Virus record (IMG/VR): IMGVR_UViG_2593339207_000001
Length of the DNA stretch: 64,000 nucleotides
Direction: 5' to 3' (one strand)
Source: a virus
Shown piece by piece: positions 33,883 through 63,513 of this stretch. The position numbers and the translations under genes were made by a program. Every line of letters begins with the position of its first letter. Positions within the stretch are counted from its first letter, which is position 1. The notes under the pieces are model-generated. The model was given only the letters and a program-made list of their open reading frames with translations, did not search any database and was not told the DNA's origin.

Positions 33883-35622
33883 ATGCCGAGCCTGATACAG
33901 CCAACATTATTCGACCTGCTTGATGTTCCGGCTTTTCCGAGACCTGCGGCGGTCACGAACGCGATTGAAACACTGGCTTCAAACAGTGGCATCGAGGCGC
34001 GAGGAGCAGTCTTTACGCGCATCGAGGTCGTTGATTTTATTCTCGATCTGGTTGGCTACGTCGCCAATGAGCCACTGCACCACCGTCGCATTCTGGAGCC
34101 ATCTTTTGGCGAGGGCGATTTCCTTCTTCCGATTGTTGAACGACTCATTTCTGCATGGCGGGAAAATGGCGGGAATGTTTCTTCCGCTGGTGCTGAATTA
34201 GGAGAAGCCATTCGTGGCGTGGAGTTACATAGGGAAACCTTTATCTCAACACGCAAGGCCGTCATTAACCGGCTGAAAGCGGAAGGATTATCGTCATCTG
34301 TGGCCTCAGAGCTCGCCGACCAATGGCTGACTCAGGGGGATTTCCTTCTTGAGCGGCAAAACGCTCGCTTTGACTTTGTTGTCGGCAATCCACCGTATGT
34401 CCGTCAAGAACTGATTCCTGCACCACTGTTGACTGAATACCGCCATCGTTACCAGACGATGTACGACCGCGCCGACCTTTACATTCCTTTCATCGAACGT
34501 TCGCTGTCTCTTCTCGACGAAGGCGGGACTCTGGGTTTTATTTGTGCCGACCGATGGATGAAAAACCGCTACGGCGGCCCATTGCGGGAGTTCATCGCAA
34601 GAAATTTCCATCTCAAAGCCTATGTCGATATGGTGGATACCAACGCTTTTCATTCCGAAGTCAGCGCCTATCCCGCGATCACCGTCATTGAGAAGACGAA
34701 AGCAGGTGCAACCCGGATTGCCCACAGGCCCAAGATTGAAAAGAAGGCGTTATCTGCTGTTGCAGCAGAAATCAGGTCTGAAGCCCTGTCCAAAGACTCA
34801 TCTGTCCGAGAAATGGTTGGAGTGGTAAGCGGTTCAGAGCCTTGGCTTTTGGAATCGTCGGATCAAATGTCGCTGATCCGACGTATCGAAAGCCAATTTC
34901 CCGCGCTGGAACAAGCTGGTTGTAAGATCGGGATTGGTGTGGCCACTGGCGCTGATAAGGCGTTCATCGGGAATTTCGAATCTCTTGACGTCGAGTCCGA
35001 CCGAAAAATTCCACTTGTGGCGACCCGTGACATTCAATCCGGTGAGGTCGTCTGGCAAGGTCAAGGAGTTATCAATCCGTTCGCAGATGACGGTGGCCTT
35101 GTCGATTTGCGGGATTACCCCAAGCTGGCCAGCTACCTTGAAGAACGAAAGTCGGTGATAGCAAAGCGTCATTGTGCACAGAAAGCACCGTCAAATTGGT
35201 ACCGGACGATTGACCGGATATGGCCGGGGCTGACCAGCAAGCCGAAGTTGCTGATACCAGATATCAAGGGCGAGGCTCACATTGTTTTTGAGCCGGGCAA
35301 ACTTTATCCGCACCACAACCTTTACTATGTCGTCTCAGACACTTGGGATTTGCGTGCCTTGCAGGCGGTATTGCTATCCAGCATCGCCAAGCTATTTGTG
35401 GCGACCTATTCAACGAAAATGCGCGGAGGTTACCTGCGTTTTCAGGCGCAGTACCTGCGGCGCATCCGCATTCCCTTCTGGCAGCACGTATCCGAGAATC
35501 TCCGGCGGGAGTTGATCCATGCCGCGACCAACCGCGATCTTGACGCTTGTAACAGAGCGGTTTTCAAACTTTACAAACTGAACCAAGAAGAACGATCCGC
35601 TCTTGGCGGCAATGGAGAATAA
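33883..35622 (+). CDS. Type II N6-adenine DNA methyltransferase (PaeR7I/XhoI-like, Eco57I/TaqI-type domains)
   Basis: [38 protein letters not shown] motifs. Confidence 0.9.
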
Positions 35623-35624
35623 TA

Positions 35625-36365
35625 ATGGCAATTGACCTTGTAGATTATGAGCGGAAGGCTCGTGAAGCTGTGCAGGCGTTTTGGGAAAACCGGGAAGCAG
35701 CCAGGCAGAAGCAAATTGAATCAGGCAAGGCCGACCAGGGGGAGCGTGCTAGTGTGACCTCTGGCAAAAACATGGATGGGTTTATCGCCTTAATACTCGA
35801 CATCATCCATGCCAACGGGCTCACCCATGCCGACATCCACCAGAAACGCGCCGTCCTGACGCTGCCCGGTTTCTTTCGGCCAACCAAGCTCTGGGATCTG
35901 CTAGTCATCCACAAAGGCGAGCTGATTGCGGCCATTGAACTGAAAAGCCAGGTGGGACCTTCGTTCGGCAACAATTTCAACAACCGGACGGAAGAGGCCA
36001 TCGGCACAGCTCATGACTTGTGGACCGCCTATCGCGAAGGGGCGTTCGGCAAACAGCCTCGTCCGTTTGTTGGCTGGCTGATGTTGGTTGAGGATGCGCC
36101 TGAGTCCCGTTCTCCAGTCAAATACAACTCACCTCATTTCCCCGTGTTTAAGGAATTCAAGAGCGTATCTTATCTCCAGCGGTACGATTTGCTTTGCCAG
36201 AAGTTGACACAGGAACAACTCTACACATCCGCTTCGCTTATCGCCTCTCCGAGATCCGCCGCTGCTGGTGGTAATTTTTGCTCGTTGTCATCAATGACCA
36301 GTCTCAAGACCTTCGTCGCCTCTCTTGCCGGACACATCGCAGGCGAGTCGGCAAGACTTGAGTAG
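35625..36365 (+). CDS. Type II restriction endonuclease, PaeR7I/XhoI family
   Basis: [12 protein letters not shown]...[24 protein letters not shown]...RPFVGWL. Confidence 0.88.
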
Positions 36366-39810: not shown

Positions 39811-41121
39811 ATGATTGACATGCTTAAAGAAATAATCCTCGATTTTCAGGAGATTGACCTTCCGACGGGTGTGCCCAGGCGGGTTGCTGTTTCGCCAGTG
39901 CCGGGAAAAGCCACGGTTTGCATCGGTGTGCGCCGCAGCGGTAAATCGACTTTCATGTTCCAGCTTATGAAGAAGCTGCAGGACACTGGCGTTGCCCGTC
40001 AGAACATCCTCTATCTGAACTTTTTCGATGATCGTCTGCATAGTCTGCAACACGACAATCTGGGTGTGATTCTGGAAGCCTACTTTTCGCTCTATCCGGA
40101 AAAAAAGAATGCCGAGAAGGTTTATTGCTTTTTCGATGAGATCCAGGTCGTACCTGGCTGGGAGCCCTTCGTTGACCGCTTGATGCGCATGGAAAAGTGC
40201 GAGGTGTACATTACCGGGTCGTCGGCTCAGATGCTCTCACGAGAGATAGCGACCCAGATGCGCGGCCGGGCACTCTCCTGGGAAATGTTCCCGTTTTCAT
40301 TCCGGGAGTTTCTCGACTACAAGGGGATCGAGAGCGACGGTCCACTCTCGACCAAAAAACGTCTGACTGTCCAGAAGGCATTCGAGGAGTACTGGGAAAC
40401 CGGTGGCTTCCCCGAGGTTGCAGGCCTTAACCGTATGCTGCGAATCAAGACCCACCAAGAGTATTTCAACGCAATGCTGTTCCGGGACCTTGTTGAACGC
40501 CATGATATCTCTCACCCCAAGGCGGTCACGGATCTGGCGCATTGGCTGGTGGACAATACGGGTTCCCTCTATTCCATCAACAACCTGACCGGCTACCTGA
40601 AATCCCTGGGGCACAAAGCGCCGAAACCCGCCGTCTCCGATTATCTCGAATGGTTCGAGGATGCCTACGTTCTGTTCACGGTGCGCATCTTTGACGCCTC
40701 GCTGGCCCGGGCCAACACCAACCCCAAGAAGATTTACTGCGCCGATCACGCGCTGGTGACGTCGATCAGCTCCGGCATTCTGGTCAACTCGGGCCATCTT
40801 CTGGAGAACCTGGTGTTCACCGCGCTGCGTCGGGTCACGCCGGATATCTTTTACTACAAGACCAAGGCGGGCCGGGAGGTTGATTTCATCGCCGGACGAC
40901 AAGGCCCGTCCCGCATGCTTGTTCAGGTTTGTGAATCGATGGCCGACCAGCAAACCCGCAAGCGGGAAACCACCGCGCTTGCCGAAGCCATGACCGAACT
41001 GAAACTGTCGCATGGCATTATCGTGACGCGTAACGAGGAAGAGCAGATACAGGTAGATTCCGGAAAAATTGACGTGGTGCCCGCCTGGCGGTTTCTGCTG
41101 AACATGCCGGAAAGCGCCTGA
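39811..41121 (+). CDS. AAA_14 + DUF4143 ATP-binding protein (moron)
   Basis: GVRRSGKST, FFDEIQ, ITGSS, TGGFPE, NPKKIY...LENLV, EVDF motifs. Confidence 0.92.
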   Translation: MIDMLKEIILDFQEIDLPTGVPRRVAVSPVPGKATVCIGVRRSGKSTFMFQLMKKLQDTGVARQNILYLNFFDDRLHSLQHDNLGVILEAYFSLYPEKKNAEKVYCFFDEIQVVPGWEPFVDRLMRMEKCEVYITGSSAQMLSREIATQMRGRALSWEMFPFSFREFLDYKGIESDGPLSTKKRLTVQKAFEEYWETGGFPEVAGLNRMLRIKTHQEYFNAMLFRDLVERHDISHPKAVTDLAHWLVDNTGSLYSINNLTGYLKSLGHKAPKPAVSDYLEWFEDAYVLFTVRIFDASLARANTNPKKIYCADHALVTSISSGILVNSGHLLENLVFTALRRVTPDIFYYKTKAGREVDFIAGRQGPSRMLVQVCESMADQQTRKRETTALAEAMTELKLSHGIIVTRNEEEQIQVDSGKIDVVPAWRFLLNMPESA

Positions 41122-41205: not shown

Positions 41206-42729
41206 TCAGATAAAAATCGGGTTGGTGAGCACCGGCTTGAGTGAGACCACCTCTTCGCCGACCGGGTCGAGGTTGCCTTCCTCCCGGATCAGCATGGCGC
41301 AGCGCACCGCGTCGATGATGTGGTCGTTGCCCTTGGAATAGATGATCTTGCCGTCCCGCAGGGTGTAGGTGTGGGTGGTGAACTGGTCTTCCACTTCCAG
41401 GTCGTCCGAGGGGAAAATGAGCTGCTTGCGTTGCAGGGCTCCGTTGATGAGGCTGGTCATCAGCTCCTTGGTCCGCTTCTTGATTTCCTTACCGTCCCGC
41501 ACCGCCAGCCGGGTCATGCCGCCGAAGTCGTATCCCTTGAGCCTGCCTTCCAGCTCCAGCCCTTTGTACTTGTCCAGGGTGAGCAACTCCTGAACCACGG
41601 CCAGACCGTTGCCGCCGTTGTCCACGCCGATGCCCGCCGGGGTGTAGTAACGCTCCAGCAGCGCGATGATCTGGGCGATGTGCGGATAGGAAACGTGTTC
41701 AAGATGTACGCGCAAGATCATCTTCAACAGCGTCCGCTCGCCGATCTCCATCTCCTGGAATACGACGATCTCGGTGGGATCGTTGGTGTAGCCCAGGTCG
41801 CCGCCGACCCAGAACTGCCCGCTGCGGGGAGTGAGGTTGAGCAGCATCTCCAGCCGGTCGTGGGCCGCTTCCTCGGTGTCGCAGTCGCGCAGCTCGGAAT
41901 CGGTGATGACGATCTTCTGGTACTCCAGCAGATCCTGCCGACAGAGGTTGAACTGTTCGACATTGAAGGCCCCATAGGAGGGTTTTCCGTGTTCACCGGC
42001 CACCTCGTGTTGCCAGCCGGAGCTGTCGCGGCCGCCGTAGAACTCCAGCAGTTCGGCCTCGCGATCCTCGGTCCACAGGGGGTTGAGCCAGGACGGCCAG
42101 CGGAACACATGGAACTGATCAGACGAGGTGAGCCGGTAATAGGTGGTGTCGCGCAGGCCGTTGGGCGTGGAGTAGATGCGTAGCGTCCCCCCGGCCTTGA
42201 GGCACTGGCGCAGCGCCTTCCAGGCCCGTTCGGTCAGCCAGGCTCCTTCATCGACCCAGACACGGCCAACATGCAGGGACCGAAAGGCGTCACCATAGGC
42301 CCCGGCCGGGCGGAAATAGAGCACCGAACCGTTGGTGAACTCCAGCCGGAAATAGGGTTTGCGGTGGATCTTTGGCTTGCCGTACTTGGTCAGAGCGATG
42401 CTGTTCATCAGATCCGGGTTGGTGTCGAGCTGGAACTCGATCTCCTCGATGATGGTGTCGAGGTGCCCCTGGTGCGGAGCCGCGATGAGGCCCTGGCCAC
42501 CCCGGGTGGTGAAGGCGTAATGGAGCGCGTCGGTCGAGAGCACGATGGACTTGCCCACGTCCCGGCCGTCGAGGTGGATGATGTTCTTGGCCGGGCAGCG
42601 CAGGTCCTCCACCTGGTGCGGCCAGTAGTCGCGGCCTGAGCCATCCCGGTTGTAGAGGTAGGCTTGCCCCCACAACACGGGATCGCTCAGGGTCGCCGCA
42701 AGTTTGCGCTCCTTGTCGGTTACCGCCAT
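41206..42729 (-). CDS. Terminase large subunit
   Basis: GRDVGKS Walker A, VWVDE Walker B, YSTP coupling motif, GGDLG, GVDNGG, DHIIDA nuclease motifs. Confidence 0.9.
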   Translation of the reverse strand: MAVTDKERKLAATLSDPVLWGQAYLYNRDGSGRDYWPHQVEDLRCPAKNIIHLDGRDVGKSIVLSTDALHYAFTTRGGQGLIAAPHQGHLDTIIEEIEFQLDTNPDLMNSIALTKYGKPKIHRKPYFRLEFTNGSVLYFRPAGAYGDAFRSLHVGRVWVDEGAWLTERAWKALRQCLKAGGTLRIYSTPNGLRDTTYYRLTSSDQFHVFRWPSWLNPLWTEDREAELLEFYGGRDSSGWQHEVAGEHGKPSYGAFNVEQFNLCRQDLLEYQKIVITDSELRDCDTEEAAHDRLEMLLNLTPRSGQFWVGGDLGYTNDPTEIVVFQEMEIGERTLLKMILRVHLEHVSYPHIAQIIALLERYYTPAGIGVDNGGNGLAVVQELLTLDKYKGLELEGRLKGYDFGGMTRLAVRDGKEIKKRTKELMTSLINGALQRKQLIFPSDDLEVEDQFTTHTYTLRDGKIIYSKGNDHIIDAVRCAMLIREEGNLDPVGEEVVSLKPVLTNPIFI

Positions 42730-43331: not shown

Positions 43332-43367
43332 ACTTGATTTCCAACGAAATAGAAGCGTCATTGGATG
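43332..43367 (+). promoter_or_regulatory. Divergent class-2 motif copy upstream of the tyrosine recombinase operon
   Basis: ACTTGATT-N14-AGCGTCATTGGATG, same length as the other copies. Confidence 0.45.
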
Positions 43368-43416: not shown

Positions 43417-43611
43417 ATGACCTACGACAGAAACCGCCAGCAGGCACTCAAGGCGTACCGAGAAAAGCAGGAGAACATCGCCCGGCTGATCGAGGGCATT
43501 CGCGGCAAGCTCGAAGCGGACGCGAAGCAGCCGGACATCACCTGGGCGAGCGTCGGCTCCCTCGGCCACGTCGAGGAACTGCTGCGGGAGCTGGACGAGT
43601 TCCTGTCCTGA
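43417..43611 (+). CDS. Small helical hypothetical protein
   Basis: GGAGG RBS; 64 aa, WASVGSLGHVEELL. Confidence 0.7.
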   Translation: MTYDRNRQQALKAYREKQENIARLIEGIRGKLEADAKQPDITWASVGSLGHVEELLRELDEFLS

Positions 43612-43644
43612 ACACACGGGGCCACCGACAAAGGAGACATCGAC

Positions 43645-44019
43645 ATGACCGAATGCACCGTGCATCAAGCCGCCGAGGCTTTCATCGGCTACCTGCGGGA
43701 ATCCGGAAAGAAAGAGCGGACCCTTTACACCTACCGGAAGGACCTCGACGCGGTTGAGGCCTTCTTCGGCGCGGATCGCCAGCTCGCCGAGATCCGGCTC
43801 CCCCAGGTCGGCAAGTTCTACAAGTCCGACCTGCTGCTCAAACTCCCCGATGGCAAGGAGCGAGCCGAACGCACCGTCGCCAAGACCGTCCGGGTGTTCC
43901 GCATGATGATGGTCTGGGCCAGGGAGTCGGGGCGCATCGAGGAGCTGCCGCTGCCCAAGAGCACACCCATGGGCCACAGCCGGGTGAAGGAGTCCAGCGA
44001 TGAGCAACCGAACGGCTGA
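43645..44019 (+). CDS. Stand-alone integrase N-terminal SAM-like (core-binding) domain
   Basis: AEAFIGYLRESGKKERTLYTYRKDL...AERTVAKTVRVFRMMMVW; no catalytic domain. Confidence 0.75.
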   Translation: MTECTVHQAAEAFIGYLRESGKKERTLYTYRKDLDAVEAFFGADRQLAEIRLPQVGKFYKSDLLLKLPDGKERAERTVAKTVRVFRMMMVWARESGRIEELPLPKSTPMGHSRVKESSDEQPNG

Positions 44020-44914
44020 CCTCGACCTGACGGGCGCGATAGAGGCGTTCTGTGCCCGCCTGTCGGCCGAAGGACGCTCCCCGGCGACCATAGCCGCATA
44101 CCGCCGGGACCTCGCCCTGGTGGCCCGCGTGGCCGGGGAGCTGGCCCCGGGTATCGTCTGCCGGGCGGTCACGGCCGGGCTCCTCGACAAGGTGTTCTCC
44201 GCCGGGGCGGTCACCGAGAGCGGGCGCGGCCCACGCTCGGCGGCCTCGCTCCATCGGATGAAGGCGGCGGTGCGGGCCTTTTTCTCCTGGGCCGTCGAGG
44301 CAGGCGTGGTCGATGACAATCCGGCTCGGTCCATCCGCATGCATCGGCTGCCGAGAAAGCTGCCGGTGTTCCTGACCGCCGCCGAAAAGAAACGCCTGCT
44401 CAAGGAGCTCAAGGGGCGGACCGACTTCTCCACGCTGCGCGACCGCGCCATGATCGAGGTGCTGCTGGGCACCGGGATCAGGCTTGGCGAGCTGGCCGCG
44501 CTCGACATGGATGACATCGACCTCGACGCCAAGCATCTGCGGGTGCGAGCCAAGGGGAATGTGCCGCAGGTCAAGTTCATCAAGACCGACCTCCGCACAT
44601 TGCTGCGCCGTTACCTGGCCGAGCGCCGTCGACACGGCCGCCCGGAAATGGAAGCCCTGTTCCTGTCGAACCGGGACGGCAGACTCTGCCAGCGGCAGAT
44701 AGCCAACCGGCTCGCCCACTGGCTGCGGAAGGCCGGGATCGAAAAGGAACTGACGCCGCACGGGCTGCGGCATACCTTCGCCACCCACCTCTACGGCGCG
44801 ACCAATGACCTGCTCGTAGTGCAGCGGGCCTTGGGGCACCGGGACGTGTCCACCACCCAGATCTACACCCACCTCGTGGACGGCCAGCTCGAGGAAGCCC
44901 TCGAACGCCTCTGA
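44000..44914 (+). CDS. XerC/D-like tyrosine recombinase
   Basis: SAM domain plus catalytic R (GIRLGE), K, HGLR, LGH, TQIY. Confidence 0.95.
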   Translation: MSNRTADLDLTGAIEAFCARLSAEGRSPATIAAYRRDLALVARVAGELAPGIVCRAVTAGLLDKVFSAGAVTESGRGPRSAASLHRMKAAVRAFFSWAVEAGVVDDNPARSIRMHRLPRKLPVFLTAAEKKRLLKELKGRTDFSTLRDRAMIEVLLGTGIRLGELAALDMDDIDLDAKHLRVRAKGNVPQVKFIKTDLRTLLRRYLAERRRHGRPEMEALFLSNRDGRLCQRQIANRLAHWLRKAGIEKELTPHGLRHTFATHLYGATNDLLVVQRALGHRDVSTTQIYTHLVDGQLEEALERL

Positions 44915-44933
44915 TCCTTCCGGACCCGACGAT

Positions 44934-44960
44934 GGGAGCGGCCTCTGCTGCTCCCGTTTT
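44934..44960 (+). terminator. Intrinsic terminator after the recombinase gene
   Basis: GGGAGCGG-CCTCTG-CTGCTCCC-GTTTT. Confidence 0.7.
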
Positions 44961-44970
44961 CGTTGGGCGA

Positions 44971-44999
44971 GACAGTGTCGAAGACAGTGAATGACAGTG
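44971..44999 (+). repeat. Three direct GACAGTG heptamers
   Basis: At 44971, 44983 and 44993. Confidence 0.7.
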
Positions 45000-45114
45000 C
45001 CCGCAGAAGAACACATCCGCCGATGATGAATGATCATGACGCCGGACCTGAATCTCCCGGGTGGGGCGGGAAATATCGATTGACCGGAATTTCTCCTTCG
45101 CTGTCTGTCGGCCG

Positions 45115-45363
45115 CACATCGCCATAACTGCTTGGCTTGTGCGCTCCGGGCGCGGAACACACATGGCAATATCTGCTTGGCATGTGCGAGGGCCGCTGCC
45201 GATGGAATGGCTATTTGCGGGGCTTGGCCGGTTCTGCCTGGGGTTCGACATGCCAATATCTACTTGGGTTATGTGAGAGAGCTCCGGCGTGAACGTGTCA
45301 ATATCTACTTGGGTTATGCGGTTCGGCTTATGCACACACATGCCAAGCGGATATCGAGAGCTG
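45115..45363. repeat. Array of ~27-bp imperfect dyad sites with ~45-bp period
   Basis: Consensus CACATGCCAA-TATCTRC-TTGGCATGTG; copies at 45115, 45160, 45247, 45292 and inverted at 45337. Confidence 0.8.
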
Positions 45364-45514
45364 CAGGAAGAAATAGAGGAGTGGAAATGATGATCGGCGG
45401 CCGAAGAATGCCGATTCCGAAAGTGCAAGGAACACGTCTTATCCGCAATTCCTGGTGTAGCTGTCTGCCGCAAGTCGCCGTGTGCCGGGGTCATCGGAAA
45501 AGCCCTCCATGGTG

Positions 45515-46015
45515 TTATCCGCAATTCTTTCCGCGTTTCTTGCGGCCGGAGGTTTTCGTTGCCGGGGCGTTGGCGGCCTCGGCCACCTTCTCGAGCAGCG
45601 CCGCCGCCCATTCCGCCGGAGAGGTCTGCGGGCCTTTCGGCTCCTCACCCTCGCGGGCGATCTTGGTGGTCTTGAGATCCTTCATGTGGCAGCGGATCAT
45701 CCGGTCGAGGCTCTCGGCCGCTTGGGTGTTCCCTTCGATCTGGGCGCGGACAAGCTTGACGGAGTAGACGCCCACCAGTTCGACTTGAAGGAAGTCACTG
45801 GACTTGTTGAACACGAAGTCCTGGTTGAGGCGGTCGATGATCGCGTCGAACATGACCTTCTCTTCCGGAGTCAGACAGCGGTCGGCGAAGATGCCGTGCG
45901 TAAGCCGATACTGGTTGCCTTCGGGTGCTCCGGCCCCGCGCTTGGGCGGTTCGGTCTTGCCCTCGTTGCGATGCCAGCGGTCCAGAATAGCTTTGTCGGG
46001 TTTGCTCAAAGGCAT
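45515..46015 (-). CDS. Terminase small subunit candidate
   Basis: GAPEGNQYRLTHGIF motif; helical; upstream of TerL. Confidence 0.65.
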   Translation of the reverse strand: MPLSKPDKAILDRWHRNEGKTEPPKRGAGAPEGNQYRLTHGIFADRCLTPEEKVMFDAIIDRLNQDFVFNKSSDFLQVELVGVYSVKLVRAQIEGNTQAAESLDRMIRCHMKDLKTTKIAREGEEPKGPQTSPAEWAAALLEKVAEAANAPATKTSGRKKRGKNCG

Positions 46016-46105: not shown

Positions 46106-46137
46106 TTACTTACCGGAAGCGGCGGCCAACTGTCGGT
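46106..46137 (-). promoter_or_regulatory. Class-1 promoter-like motif upstream of TerS, overlapping the upstream stop codon
   Basis: ACCGACA-N13-TCCGGTAAGTAA. Confidence 0.75.
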
Positions 46138-61409: not shown

Positions 61410-61934
61410 ATGAATGAGTTACACAACGCCGCCACCGGCGGCAAGAATCAGGACCGAACCCGAAACTCGGTCCTTCGGCAGATGGCCCTGCTGCAATCCA
61501 TGTCCCTGGAGCAGCTCCGGGAAAAATGGCTCGACCTCTACGGCGAAGAGCCGCCCCAGTACAAAAAGCAATTCCTCATCAAGCGGCTGGCCTATCGCAT
61601 CCAGGAGCTTTTCTACGGCGGGCTGTCCGAGCAGGCCAAGGTCCATCTCCAGCAGGCCGCCAAGGAGGACCCGGTAGCCACTGTCAATCGACGCATCCCA
61701 GAAGAGCGGAAATCGAACGAGGCGCTCCTGCCCGGGACCAGACTGGTGCGGGTCTGGAACGACCGGCGCTATGAGGTGATCGTCCTTGCCGATGGCTATG
61801 AGTTCGAAGGCCGCACCTTCCGGTCGCTCAGCGCGGTGGCCAGGGAGATCACCGGGACGCGCTGGAACGGCAAGGTCTTTTTCGGGCTGAAGAAGGTTTA
61901 CGGCAGAAAAGCCGAAGGAGGTTCGGATGCTTGA
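61410..61934 (+). CDS. DUF2924 family protein
   Basis: LREKWLDLYG...LAYRIQELFYGGL...PGTRLVRVW...SLSAVAREITGTRWNG. Confidence 0.92.
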   Translation: MNELHNAATGGKNQDRTRNSVLRQMALLQSMSLEQLREKWLDLYGEEPPQYKKQFLIKRLAYRIQELFYGGLSEQAKVHLQQAAKEDPVATVNRRIPEERKSNEALLPGTRLVRVWNDRRYEVIVLADGYEFEGRTFRSLSAVAREITGTRWNGKVFFGLKKVYGRKAEGGSDA

Positions 61935-63513
61935 TAACAGCAATGTAGCGCCGGGCAAAAACAAGACCCTGCGCTGCGCCATCTACACCCGCAAGAGTCA
62001 TGAGGAAGGGCTCGAACAGGAGTTCAACTCGTTGGATGCGCAACGGGAGTCGGCGGAACACTATATCGAATCCCAGAGGATGCGGGGCTGGACGGCTCTG
62101 CCGGATCGCTACGACGATGGTGGTTTCTCGGGTGGGAACATGGAGCGCCCGGGGCTGCGCCGCCTGCTGGAGGACATCGATGCCGGGAAGATTGACGTGA
62201 TCGTGGTCTACAAGGTCGACCGGCTGTCCCGCTCGCTGCTGGACTTCATGAAGATGATCGACCTCTTCAACGAGAAGGGTGTCAGCTTCGTCTCGGTCAC
62301 CCAGCACTTCAGCACCACCGACCCCACCGGCCGGATGTTTCTCGGCATCCTGATTACCTTCGCCCAGTACGAGCGGGAGGTCATCGCTGAACGTATCCGG
62401 GACAAGGTGGCGGCCGCCAAGCGCCGGGGGAAATACTGCGGCGGCGTGCCCATCATCGGATATGACGTCGACCGGGAGAACAAGAAGCTGCTGGTCAACC
62501 CCGATGAGGCCAGGACGGTGCAGTACATCTTCCGCCGCTTCATCCAGATCGGCTCGGCCAAGAAGCTGGGCCAGGAATTGAACGAACAGGGATACCGGAC
62601 CAAGGCCTGGACCACCAAGAAAGGCAAGGTGCGCGAGGGCTCCGAATGGAACACCGCCCACATCTACCGGCTGCTCAACAACCGGATCTATATCGGCGAG
62701 ATCGCCCACAAGGATCGCAGCTACCCCGGGGAGCACGATGGGATCATTGACCGGGCGACCTGGGACAAGGTGCAGGTCATCCTGGAGGACAACAAACCGG
62801 TCAAGATTTCCATGGCCAGAACCAAAATGGTCGCCCCGCTGAAGGGCGTCATCCGCTGCGGCCACTGCGGATGCTCGATGGGACCGACCTACGCCCGCAA
62901 GAACGGCCGCCACTACACCTATTACATCTGCCAGAAGGACAGCAAGCGGACCGTGAGCCGGTGTCCGCTCAAACGGATTCCCGCCGGGGACATCGAGCAG
63001 GCCGTGGTCGAGCAGTTGAGCGCGGTGTTCCGCACACCGACGCTGGTGGCCAAAACCTTCTTTGCGGCCCGGGACATCGAGCAGGTGGAGCGGGAGCGGC
63101 TGTTCAAGCAGAAAGCCCAACTCGAGATGGAGCTGTCGCAGGCGCGGGAGCAAGCCCTCGAACTGATGAGGCCCGGCAACGATCAGCCGGGCAAGGCCGA
63201 GATGCTGACAACCGTCAACCGCCAGGCGGTCGAGCTCTCGAAACAACTGACGCACGTGAACGAGCGATGCAGAGCCTACCAGGGGAACAGCATCACGGAA
63301 CAGGATGTTTCGGAGGCCTTCCAGAATGTCGAAGGCTTCTGGGAAGACCTTTTCCCGGTGGAGCGAAACCGGCTCATCCGCCTCCTGGTGGATAAGGTCG
63401 AGATCCGCGAGACCGGAATCGACATGGAGTTGCGCACCAACGGGCTGACAACGCTCATCGCCGAACTGGCTGGGCTGGCATGCGAAGTCACCGAACGGAG
63501 GGCAATTCGATGA
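61927..63513 (+). CDS. Large serine recombinase (resolvase + recombinase + zinc ribbon)
   Basis: CAIYTRKS, DGGFSGG...RPGL, VDRLSRS, CGHCG...YYIC...C. Confidence 0.96.
   Translation: MLDNSNVAPGKNKTLRCAIYTRKSHEEGLEQEFNSLDAQRESAEHYIESQRMRGWTALPDRYDDGGFSGGNMERPGLRRLLEDIDAGKIDVIVVYKVDRLSRSLLDFMKMIDLFNEKGVSFVSVTQHFSTTDPTGRMFLGILITFAQYEREVIAERIRDKVAAAKRRGKYCGGVPIIGYDVDRENKKLLVNPDEARTVQYIFRRFIQIGSAKKLGQELNEQGYRTKAWTTKKGKVREGSEWNTAHIYRLLNNRIYIGEIAHKDRSYPGEHDGIIDRATWDKVQVILEDNKPVKISMARTKMVAPLKGVIRCGHCGCSMGPTYARKNGRHYTYYICQKDSKRTVSRCPLKRIPAGDIEQAVVEQLSAVFRTPTLVAKTFFAARDIEQVERERLFKQKAQLEMELSQAREQALELMRPGNDQPGKAEMLTTVNRQAVELSKQLTHVNERCRAYQGNSITEQDVSEAFQNVEGFWEDLFPVERNRLIRLLVDKVEIRETGIDMELRTNGLTTLIAELAGLACEVTERRAIR

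What the first reader, a model, noticed from the sequence alone, without database searches (positions are those of the whole stretch)
43417..45363. Tyrosine recombinase + stand-alone SAM domain + periodic array of core-type dyad sites between TerS and TerL
Seen: an operon of a 64-aa protein, a catalytic-less integrase SAM-like domain and an intact XerC-like enzyme. It is followed by a terminator, three GACAGTG heptamers and five 27-bp sites with ~10-bp imperfect inverted arms around a 7-bp core (CACATGGCAA-TATCTGC-TTGGCATGTG). Core starts are at 45125, 45170, 45257, 45302 and 45347 (45, 87, 45, 45 bp apart), the last copy is inverted, and a degenerate copy lies near 45214. Known: tyrosine recombinase core sites have two inverted arms around a 6-8-bp overlap. 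The prophage already has a serine recombinase for integration. Inference: a dedicated multi-site system, such as dimer resolution of the excised circle, an inversion switch or control of packaging initiation, with the SAM-only protein as an architectural or directionality factor.
Basis: partly seen in the sequence, partly recalled or inferred. Interest (0 to 1): 0.8.

Follow-up and report, generated by a model that had tools for sequence, protein, structure and literature searches.

The report
Phage Xer recombinase module; repeats optional
A family of temperate phages keeps an intact Xer-type DNA recombinase and a small helper made only of its DNA-clamp domain between its packaging genes; the striking 45-bp repeat array next to it is real but is an optional, lineage-specific add-on, and the enzyme's likely target is a conserved 28-bp dif-like site about 60 bp further on.

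Summary
The three-gene operon, its terminator, the three GACAGTG heptamers and the 45-bp-phased repeats are all present and non-random. Two details fail. Only one repeat copy is a good dyad, and the 'TerS' label for the 166-aa gene could not be confirmed.

Evidence comes from about 120 related loci.
- The pair SAM-only protein + Xer sits between the TerS-like gene and TerL in every relative, down to 53% Xer identity. It is core equipment, not a moron.
- The array occurs only in two sister lineages. Near-identical phages carry 1 to 4 direct copies. It is not coding and has no significant RNA fold.
Its arms covary. A direct copy of its right arm lies exactly 75-76 bp away, over the stop codon of the TerS-like gene.
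- Three natural recombinant types have their junction in or at the 6-bp core.

My reading is a Cre/loxP- or TnpI/IRS-like internal recombination system that turns redundant or multimeric phage DNA into monomer circles. The array is an optional accessory or regulatory element.

This scan met the same module before on other DNA (e1-1202213), and that follow-up reached a similar verdict.

The parts
43332..43367 (+). Promoter-like 'class 2' motif ahead of the recombinase operon (ACTTGATT ... AGC.TCATT)
Evidence: The sequences are printed. By my count only about 18 of 36 positions match the copy ahead of the serine-integrase operon, so this is weak.
43417..43611 (+). 64-aa helical protein (p64), function unknown
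   Evidence: ORF. It matches phrog_14596, unknown function, at 3.3e-5. By tblastn it is found only in the two lineages that also have the array.
43645..44019 (+). Stand-alone core-binding (SAM-like) domain protein, 124 aa, with an acidic tail
   Evidence: Sequence hints are weak, and it is 26% identical to the N-domain of its own Xer. The family is tight: 348 homologues of 119-134 aa, with 63% mean column identity. The fold is confirmed.
44000..44914 (+). Intact Xer-family tyrosine recombinase, 304 aa
   Evidence: Pfam. NCBIfam scores for XerC (224.6 bits) and XerD (207.7 bits) are both below the equivalog cut-offs. PDB XerD matches at 5.8e-37, with R, K, H-x-x-R, H and Y aligned.
44933..44964 (+). 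Intrinsic terminator of the recombinase operon
   Evidence: It is conserved in relatives.
44971..44999 (+). Three GACAGTG heptamers, 12 and 10 bp apart; binding partner unknown
   Evidence: They are conserved in the 95% group. ACAGT-type repeats sit at the same place in L141 and L149.
45115..45364 (+). 45-bp-phased repeat array: 4 direct copies, one degenerate copy and an 18-nt inverted half copy. Each unit also carries a TTATGYG-type half-site-like motif
   Evidence: Copy number varies in relatives. A public contig joins 45136 to 45314. It is non-coding. RNA fold z-scores are -1.9 and -1.7.
45422..45449 (+). Site 1: candidate recombination core site, 11-6-11 (AGTGCAAGGAA CACGTC TTATCCGCAAT)
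   Evidence: Present in all lineages, with covarying arms. Positions 45414-45443 are invariant in 18 distinct intergenic sequences of the 95% group. Recombinant junctions fall here. It is unique in the host genome.
45515..45525 (+). Site 2: direct copy of the right arm of site 1, 76 bp away, overlapping the stop codon of the 166-aa gene; candidate accessory site
   Evidence: The spacing is 75-76 bp in all lineages. It evolves in concert with the right arm of site 1.
45515..46015 (-). 166-aa conserved gene ('TerS-like'), identity not established
   Evidence: It has its own phage-type promoter motif at 46106-46137.
41206..42729 (-). Large terminase (TerL)
   Evidence: Terminase_6N and Terminase_6C. 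phrog_2 at 1.1e-29.

Best explanation
The SAM-only protein and the Xer recombinase form a conserved, phage-internal site-specific recombination module.

The recombinase most likely acts at the 28-bp dif-like site at 45422-45449. A copy of the right arm 76 bp away (45515-45525) probably serves as an accessory site. This resembles Cre at loxP, or TnpI at the Tn4430 resolution site.

Recombination between two copies of the site would yield monomer circles. Two copies would exist on a terminally redundant, concatemeric or dimeric phage genome. The position next to the packaging genes fits the phage P1 logic, in which the site falls inside the terminal redundancy of the first headful.

The 45-bp array is not the crossover site. 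It is a lineage-specific, copy-number-variable set of phased repeats that travels with the recombinase side. It is most likely an optional accessory or regulatory binding platform for p64, the SAM-only protein or Xer.

Shown: gene content, fold, conservation, site architecture, covariation, and junctions of natural recombinants. Inferred: who binds what, and the biological role.
For: 1. The module is core.
- 58 of 59 loci seeded with the TerS-like gene alone carry SAM-only + Xer.
- The same gene order holds in every relative.

2. Xer is catalytically intact and belongs to the Xer family, whose known sites are 28-bp 11-6-11 dyads (dif sequences in PMC3025954).

3. Site 1 has that architecture in all lineages.
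- 77.8% of arm positions are complementary, against 26-48% when the partner arm is slid.
- 13 cells show double-sided changes, and 0 of 500 shuffles reach that.
- One variant matches the Bacillus subtilis dif arms at 18 of 22 positions.

4. Site 2 keeps a 75-76 bp spacing and tracks the right arm of site 1. Mean identity is 9.5 of 11 against 8.58 when shuffled, with 0 of 10000 shuffles as high.

5. Site 1 is the most invariant stretch of the intergenic region.

6. Natural recombinants break at the core.
- L130 is 100% identical to an A-type phage on the left and 100% identical to a B-type phage on the right.
- G029 and L062/L073 carry foreign DNA up to the core.

7. The array is found only in the A and B lineages, and its copy number varies. 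In L130 it stays with the recombinase side.

8. None of the genome-borne relatives I inspected is interrupted at the site. Integration is therefore not its job.
Against: - No binding, cleavage or recombination has been observed.
- Site 1 and site 2 abut the TerS-like gene, so they could instead be packaging (pac) recognition sites.
- The junctions fall in the only 15 bp shared by otherwise diverged flanks. Short-homology recombination by the phage's own recombination genes would map there too.
- The covariation counts come from related sequences and overstate independence.
- In this window the left arm matches the right arm at only 6 of 11 positions.
- The phage encodes a PD-(D/E)XK exonuclease. 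It may therefore not need a site-specific route to circularise.
- The role of the SAM-only protein is entirely inferred.
Confidence: 0.5

Rival explanations
1. One reading: the array itself is the multi-site target where Xer exchanges strands, by resolution, inversion or packaging control, with the SAM-only protein as architectural factor.
For: - Copy 2 is a 10-7-10 near-perfect dyad, a legal core-site geometry.
- The copies are phased at 45 bp, and copy-number changes come in whole units. That pattern would fit recombination between copies.
- Each unit holds a TTATGYG motif that resembles the inner part of Xer arms.
Against: - The array is absent from most lineages that keep SAM-only + Xer.
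- Only 1 of 5 copies is a good dyad.
- The arms are unlike those of the conserved site and do not covary with it between the A and B lineages.
- Whole-unit changes are equally expected from replication slippage.
Confidence: 0.1
2. Site 1, site 2 and possibly the array are the packaging recognition (pac) region bound by the small terminase. The recombinase then has another target, or none nearby.
For: - Site 2 overlaps the 3' end of the TerS-like gene in all lineages, and the fixed spacing suggests a nucleoprotein complex.
- By established knowledge, pac sites often lie in or next to terS, and DNA ends made there are recombinogenic. That could explain the junctions.
Against: - The 11-6-11 geometry with ...GAA/TAA-N6-TTAT... 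is that of Xer-family sites.
- The junctions are precise to the core.
- The TerS identity of the 166-aa protein is unproven.
- In L130 an A-type left arm sits beside a B-type right arm and a B-type TerS-like gene.
Confidence: 0.15
3. The module is mainly regulatory. Either the SAM-only protein, and perhaps Xer, act as DNA-binding regulators, as the recombinase-derived repressors MrpR and SroF do in SPbeta-type phages. Or the antisense operon gates read-through from the TerS-like promoter into TerL.
For: - The phage-type promoter motif stands before the TerS-like, p257 and portal genes but never before the TerL operon. This holds here and in relatives. TerL may therefore depend on transcription running antisense through the cassette.
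- MrpR and SroF appear among the structural neighbours of the SAM-only model, at Z 7.6 and 8.9.
Against: - Xer keeps every catalytic residue across the clade, which argues for real catalysis.
- No repeated operator for either protein was found elsewhere in the prophage.
Confidence: 0.12
4. Xer is a second integrase that uses site 1 as attP in other hosts, or a dif-type hijacker that uses the host's XerCD site.
For: The site is dif-like.
Against: - All prophage copies I inspected are continuous across the site.
- The host genome has no second match.
- The candidate host dif at G000:C1:1983142 has a different central region, GATATA against CACGTC.
Confidence: 0.04

Closest known systems
Cre/loxP of phage P1
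   Same: A phage-encoded tyrosine recombinase with one dyad site beside its own gene and close to the packaging genes. It is not used for chromosomal integration. Recombination at the site would exchange flanking markers between phages, as seen in L130. The P1 biology is stated from my own knowledge.
   Different: - This enzyme is nearest to XerD, XerC and XerA, not to Cre. Cre's N-domain reaches only Z 5.2 against the SAM-only model.
- The site is 11-6-11, not 13-8-13.
- There is an extra half-site at 75-76 bp and a separate core-binding-domain protein, neither of which P1 has.
- This phage integrates with a serine integrase and is not a plasmid prophage.
TnpI and the internal resolution site of Tn4430 (PMC2847244)
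   Same: A core of two inverted motifs, plus directly repeated accessory motifs of the same sequence family on one side. In Tn4430 these give resolution selectivity. Here site 2 is a direct copy of the right arm of site 1 and evolves with it.
   Different: - This is not a transposon.
- There is one accessory copy at 75-76 bp, not two adjacent ones.
- Binding of the accessory copy is untested, and it may involve the SAM-only protein instead of the recombinase.
XerCD/dif and single-recombinase Xer systems (XerA, XerH, XerS)
   Same: The protein family and the 28-bp site geometry, with conserved inner arm bases.
   Different: - The scores are below the XerC and XerD equivalog cut-offs.
- The module is phage-borne.
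- The central region differs from the candidate host dif.
- There is no sign of an FtsK link.
MrpR (SPbeta) and SroF (phi3T), recombinase-derived phage regulators
   Same: Proteins with the tyrosine-recombinase fold that have lost catalysis and act by binding DNA (PDB titles). This is a possible model for the SAM-only protein.
   Different: Those proteins keep both domains. This one is the N-domain alone and is always paired with an active recombinase.

Membership tests
Xer-family tyrosine recombinases | Core-binding domain plus catalytic domain | tested here: met
   SAM_1 at 1.1e-10 and Phage_integrase at 1.4e-42.
Xer-family tyrosine recombinases | Catalytic R, K, H-x-x-R, H/W, Y | tested here: met
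   All are aligned with XerD in 1a0p.
XerC or XerD orthologue | Score above the NCBIfam equivalog cut-off | tested here: not met
   224.6 bits against a cut-off of 335 for XerC. 207.7 bits against 329.6 for XerD.
Xer-family tyrosine recombinases | 28-bp target with two 11-bp inverted arms around 6 bp | tested here: met
   Site 1 has this architecture in 18 variants, with covarying arms. Binding is not testable here.
dif-hijacking elements (IMEX) | Site matches the host dif central region and integrates there | tested here: not met
   The candidate host dif has a different centre. No prophage is split at the site.
Cre/loxP-type cyclisation or resolution | Site lies in the terminal redundancy; recombination circularises or resolves phage DNA | not testable with these tools
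   This needs virion end mapping and genetics. Public runs gave contigs only.
TnpI/IRS-type site | Core inverted motifs plus same-family direct accessory motifs on one side | tested here: met
   Site 2 lies at a fixed 75-76 bp and evolves in concert with the right arm of site 1. Its function is untested.
Integron (IntI with attC array) | Integron-integrase signature, and cassettes between the sites | tested here: not met
   100.9 bits against a cut-off of 265. The 45-bp units hold no ORFs.
Core-binding (SAM-like) domain of tyrosine recombinases, for the 124-aa protein | Helical-bundle fold of the N-domain, and no catalytic domain | tested here: met
   Z 14.4 (rmsd 1.8 A over 97 aa) to 3nrw. 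Z 12.4 to the lambda Int core-binding domain. Z 11.3 to XerD. Unrelated rows score 6.7 or less. The protein is 124 aa long.
Small terminase (TerS), for the 166-aa protein | Family or fold match to a known TerS | tested here: inconclusive
   No Pfam, PHROG, NCBIfam or PDB hit. The model is weak at pLDDT 61.6, with no clear fold match. There is an Atlas lead of 0.83-0.86 only.
CRISPR array | Repeats separated by unique spacers of about 30 bp or more | tested here: not met
   The gaps are 16-18 bp and partly alike. There is no Rfam hit.

The most novel reading that the evidence does not exclude
The stand-alone core-binding domain is an obligatory non-catalytic subunit. It would occupy one arm of the dif-like site or the accessory half-site; the arms differ at one fixed position, GAGAA against GATAA, in 16 of 18 variants. 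In that role it would gate a single Xer recombinase. The cassette sits antisense inside the terminase transcription unit, which would couple genome circularisation or resolution to the switch into late packaging. That would be a new way to build and control a tyrosine-recombinase synapse.
Probability: 0.15. Interest if true: 0.75.

Novelty: new variant of a known kind. Interest (0 to 1): 0.58.

Why it matters
Temperate phages that integrate with a serine integrase are not expected to keep a second, active recombinase in the middle of the packaging module. Here a whole clade does, always together with a free core-binding domain.

If the 28-bp site is its target, this is a compact natural recombinase-and-site pair with a possible built-in helper. 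That is of interest for phage genome mechanics (circularisation, multimer resolution, modular exchange between phages) and as a candidate orthogonal recombination tool.

It also corrects the obvious reading. The eye-catching repeats are not the conserved element.

Tried and rejected
- Coding in the array. A 343-aa minus-strand frame (44580-45611) stays open across the intergenic region. However, variable sites fall 19/24/29 over the three phases, with no third-position excess, and one relative breaks the frame. A 24-aa ORF at 45388 with a good ribosome-binding site is not conserved at the protein level.
- RNA element. There is no Rfam match. Fold z-scores are -1.9 and -1.7.
- Operator set. The array motifs and the site arms occur nowhere else in the prophage.
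- Physical ends. Metagenomic contig ends do not pile up at any one place in the intergenic region.
- Public reads. Only assembled contigs were available, so they give no starts, ends or expression. One contig shows a 177-bp array contraction.
- Phage GenBank records gave no relative.
- Profile searches of the SAM-only and TerS-like alignments against PDB sequences found nothing.
- Prophage ends. The nearest relative also carries related phage DNA, so attB could not be read.
- Pairwise flank comparison inside the 95% group did not reveal further breakpoints.

Full report
**Context.** The window is a 61.5% GC prophage of a myovirus type, read almost entirely on the minus strand.
- Its genes include a primase, a RecD-like helicase, a PD-(D/E)XK exonuclease, TerL, a portal, a MuF-like protein, a capsid, a sheath and a large serine recombinase at 61927-63510.
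- The finding lies in one of the few plus-strand blocks.
- The 600-bp stretch 44915-45514 lies between two convergent 3' ends. On one side is the recombinase operon, on the other a conserved 166-aa minus-strand gene.

**Checking the observation.**
- The three ORFs are as described.
- The 304-aa protein is an intact Xer-family recombinase. It has Phage_integrase at 1.4e-42 and matches XerD at 5.8e-37 with all catalytic residues aligned. It scores below the XerC and XerD equivalog cut-offs.
- The 124-aa protein gives only weak sequence hints, but its fold is clear. The AF2 model of the family has pLDDT 83.7.
- The 24 best solved-structure matches to that model are all N-terminal core-binding domains of tyrosine recombinases, Z 14.4 to 7.3. 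Unrelated chains score 6.7 or less.
- The terminator, the heptamers and the repeats are real and far above chance. The repeat motif is unique in the 3.7-Mb genome.
- Two details do not hold. Only copy 2 is a good dyad, and the last copy is an 18-nt inverted half copy.
- The 'TerS' name rests on position only.

**Relatives.**
- Searches seeded with the SAM-only protein, the 166-aa protein and a family alignment returned about 120 distinct loci. They came from viral contigs, isolate or MAG genomes and assemblies.
- Every one has the same order: TerL (minus), SAM-only and Xer (plus), an intergenic region, then the 166-aa gene, p92 and p257 (minus).
- The TerS-like search does not presuppose the cassette. 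In it, 58 of 59 loci with enough flank carry the cassette.
- The exception, L108, is a deletion that also removes the start of TerL.
- The SAM-only family is tight: 348 homologues of 119-134 aa, with 63% mean column identity.
- The module is therefore core equipment of a phage clade found in Thermodesulfobacteriota and beyond. It is not a moron and not decay.

**The array.**
- Among phages about 95% identical to this one, the intergenic region is 606, 561, 474 or 429 bp long, with 4, 3, 2 or 1 direct copies plus the half copy.
- A public contig joins 45136 to 45314, which is the same contraction.
- A sister lineage with Xer about 71% identical has diverged units, again phased at 45 bp.
- All other lineages lack it. 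One has an unrelated 32-bp tandem repeat.
- Variation shows no codon periodicity, and RNA folding is not significant.
- The array co-occurs with p64. The two lineages that have both are sisters, so this is one observation and not two.

- In every lineage an 11-6-11 dyad lies just before the 166-aa gene. Here it is at 45422-45449.
- A direct copy of its right arm lies 75 or 76 bp further on, over that gene's stop codon.
- Across 18 variants, 77.8% of arm positions are complementary, against 26-48% when the partner arm is slid.
- 13 cells show changes on both sides, and 0 of 500 shuffles reach that. For example C:G, A:T and G:C all occur at arm position 6.
- Arm position 9 is asymmetric in 16 of 18 variants, which gives the site a polarity.
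- The distal half-site tracks the right arm. Mean identity is 9.5 of 11 against 8.58 for shuffled pairs, with 0 of 10000 shuffles as high.
- These sequences are related, so the counts overstate independence.
- Within the 95% group, 45414-45443 is invariant in 18 distinct intergenic sequences.
- The geometry and inner bases (...GAA/TAA, six bases, TTAT...) are those of dif sites. One variant matches the arms of the Bacillus subtilis dif at 18 of 22 positions.
- It is not a copy of the host site. A candidate host dif lies near the GC-skew maximum and has a different centre. The phage site has no second match in the genome.

**Natural recombinants.**
- L130 is 100% identical to an A-type phage over the 300 bp left of the core. 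It is 100% identical to a B-type phage over the 250 bp to the right.
- In G029, foreign DNA replaces 45327-45429 and ends exactly at the core. It carries an AbrB/Doc toxin-antitoxin pair and a 239-aa gene.
- L062 and L073 carry a related gene at the same place in the B lineage.
- L072 combines one left type with another right type.
- This is what exchange at a recombination site would leave. It is not proof, because the core region is also the only 15 bp that these diverged flanks share.

**Reading.**
- The best-supported mechanism is a phage-internal recombinase-and-site pair built like Xer/dif, with an accessory half-site as in TnpI/IRS.
- It would be used as Cre/loxP is used by P1, to make monomer circles from redundant or multimeric DNA. 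The position beside the packaging genes fits that use. The P1 comparison rests on my own knowledge.
- The array is an optional element linked to the recombinase side, since in L130 it stays with that side. Its function is unknown.
- The units contain TTATGYG motifs in the same orientation as the site arms. Binding by the SAM-only protein, Xer or p64 is therefore possible but untested.

**Transcription.** The prophage's own promoter motif (TCCGACAC, 15 bases, TTCCGGTAAGTAAC) precedes the 166-aa gene, p257 and the portal gene. It never precedes the TerL operon, here or in relatives. TerL may depend on transcription that runs antisense through the cassette. That keeps a regulatory role for the cassette open.

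**Earlier notes of this scan.** After I had formed this reading, I found that a follow-up on other DNA (e1-1202213) had reached a similar verdict, with the repeats optional and Cre/loxP as the nearest model. The promoter motif leads came from notes on this window, and I checked them here.

Noticed in passing
L016:2626-4100 (G029), replacing window 45327-45429: An AbrB-type antitoxin, a Doc/Fic toxin and a 239-aa minus-strand gene are inserted between the array and site 1. The 239-aa gene may be endonuclease-like, but I judged that by eye and did not test it. A related gene sits at the same place in L062 and L073. L149 has a PIN toxin-antitoxin pair next to site 2, and L173 has an AbrB-type gene just after Xer. 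This intergenic region is a hot spot for small defence or addiction cassettes.
   Followed up: partly
window 46106-46137, 47200, 39586 and six more (minus strand): A phage-specific promoter-like motif (TCCGACAC, 15 bases, TTCCGGTAAGTAAC) stands before nine operons. None stands before the TerL operon at 43333-41206, here or in relatives.
   Followed up: partly
G005, G029, G058, G077, G295, G363: Phages 95-99% identical in this region occur in genomes that the genome tool assigns to five different families of one phylum. This suggests either a very wide host range or recent spread.
   Followed up: no
window 45392-45414: A hairpin (ATCGGC ... GCCGAT) whose stem is conserved while its loop varies among close relatives. 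It lies between the array and site 1.
   Followed up: no
L108:5400-6100: A defective relative in which a deletion runs from the heptamers into TerL. It removes Xer, the SAM-only gene, p64 and the start of TerL but keeps the array and both sites.
   Followed up: partly
G000:C1:1983142-1983169: Candidate chromosomal dif site (GAGTCGCATAA GATATA TTATGTAAACT) next to the cumulative GC-skew maximum at about 1.96 Mb.
   Followed up: partly
L149:2567-4513: The TerL of one distant relative carries an intein with a LAGLIDADG domain, according to precomputed Pfam hits.
   Followed up: no
window 33883-36365 and 39811-41121: Two other plus-strand, lower-GC3 inserts lie in the late region. One is an Eco57I-type methylase with an XhoI-family endonuclease. 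The other is an AAA_14/DUF4143 ATPase between the portal gene and TerL.
   Followed up: no
L162 intergenic region (positions 287-397 of the extracted stretch): A different tandem repeat, 32-bp period and 3.5 copies, occupies the same intergenic region in another lineage.
   Followed up: no
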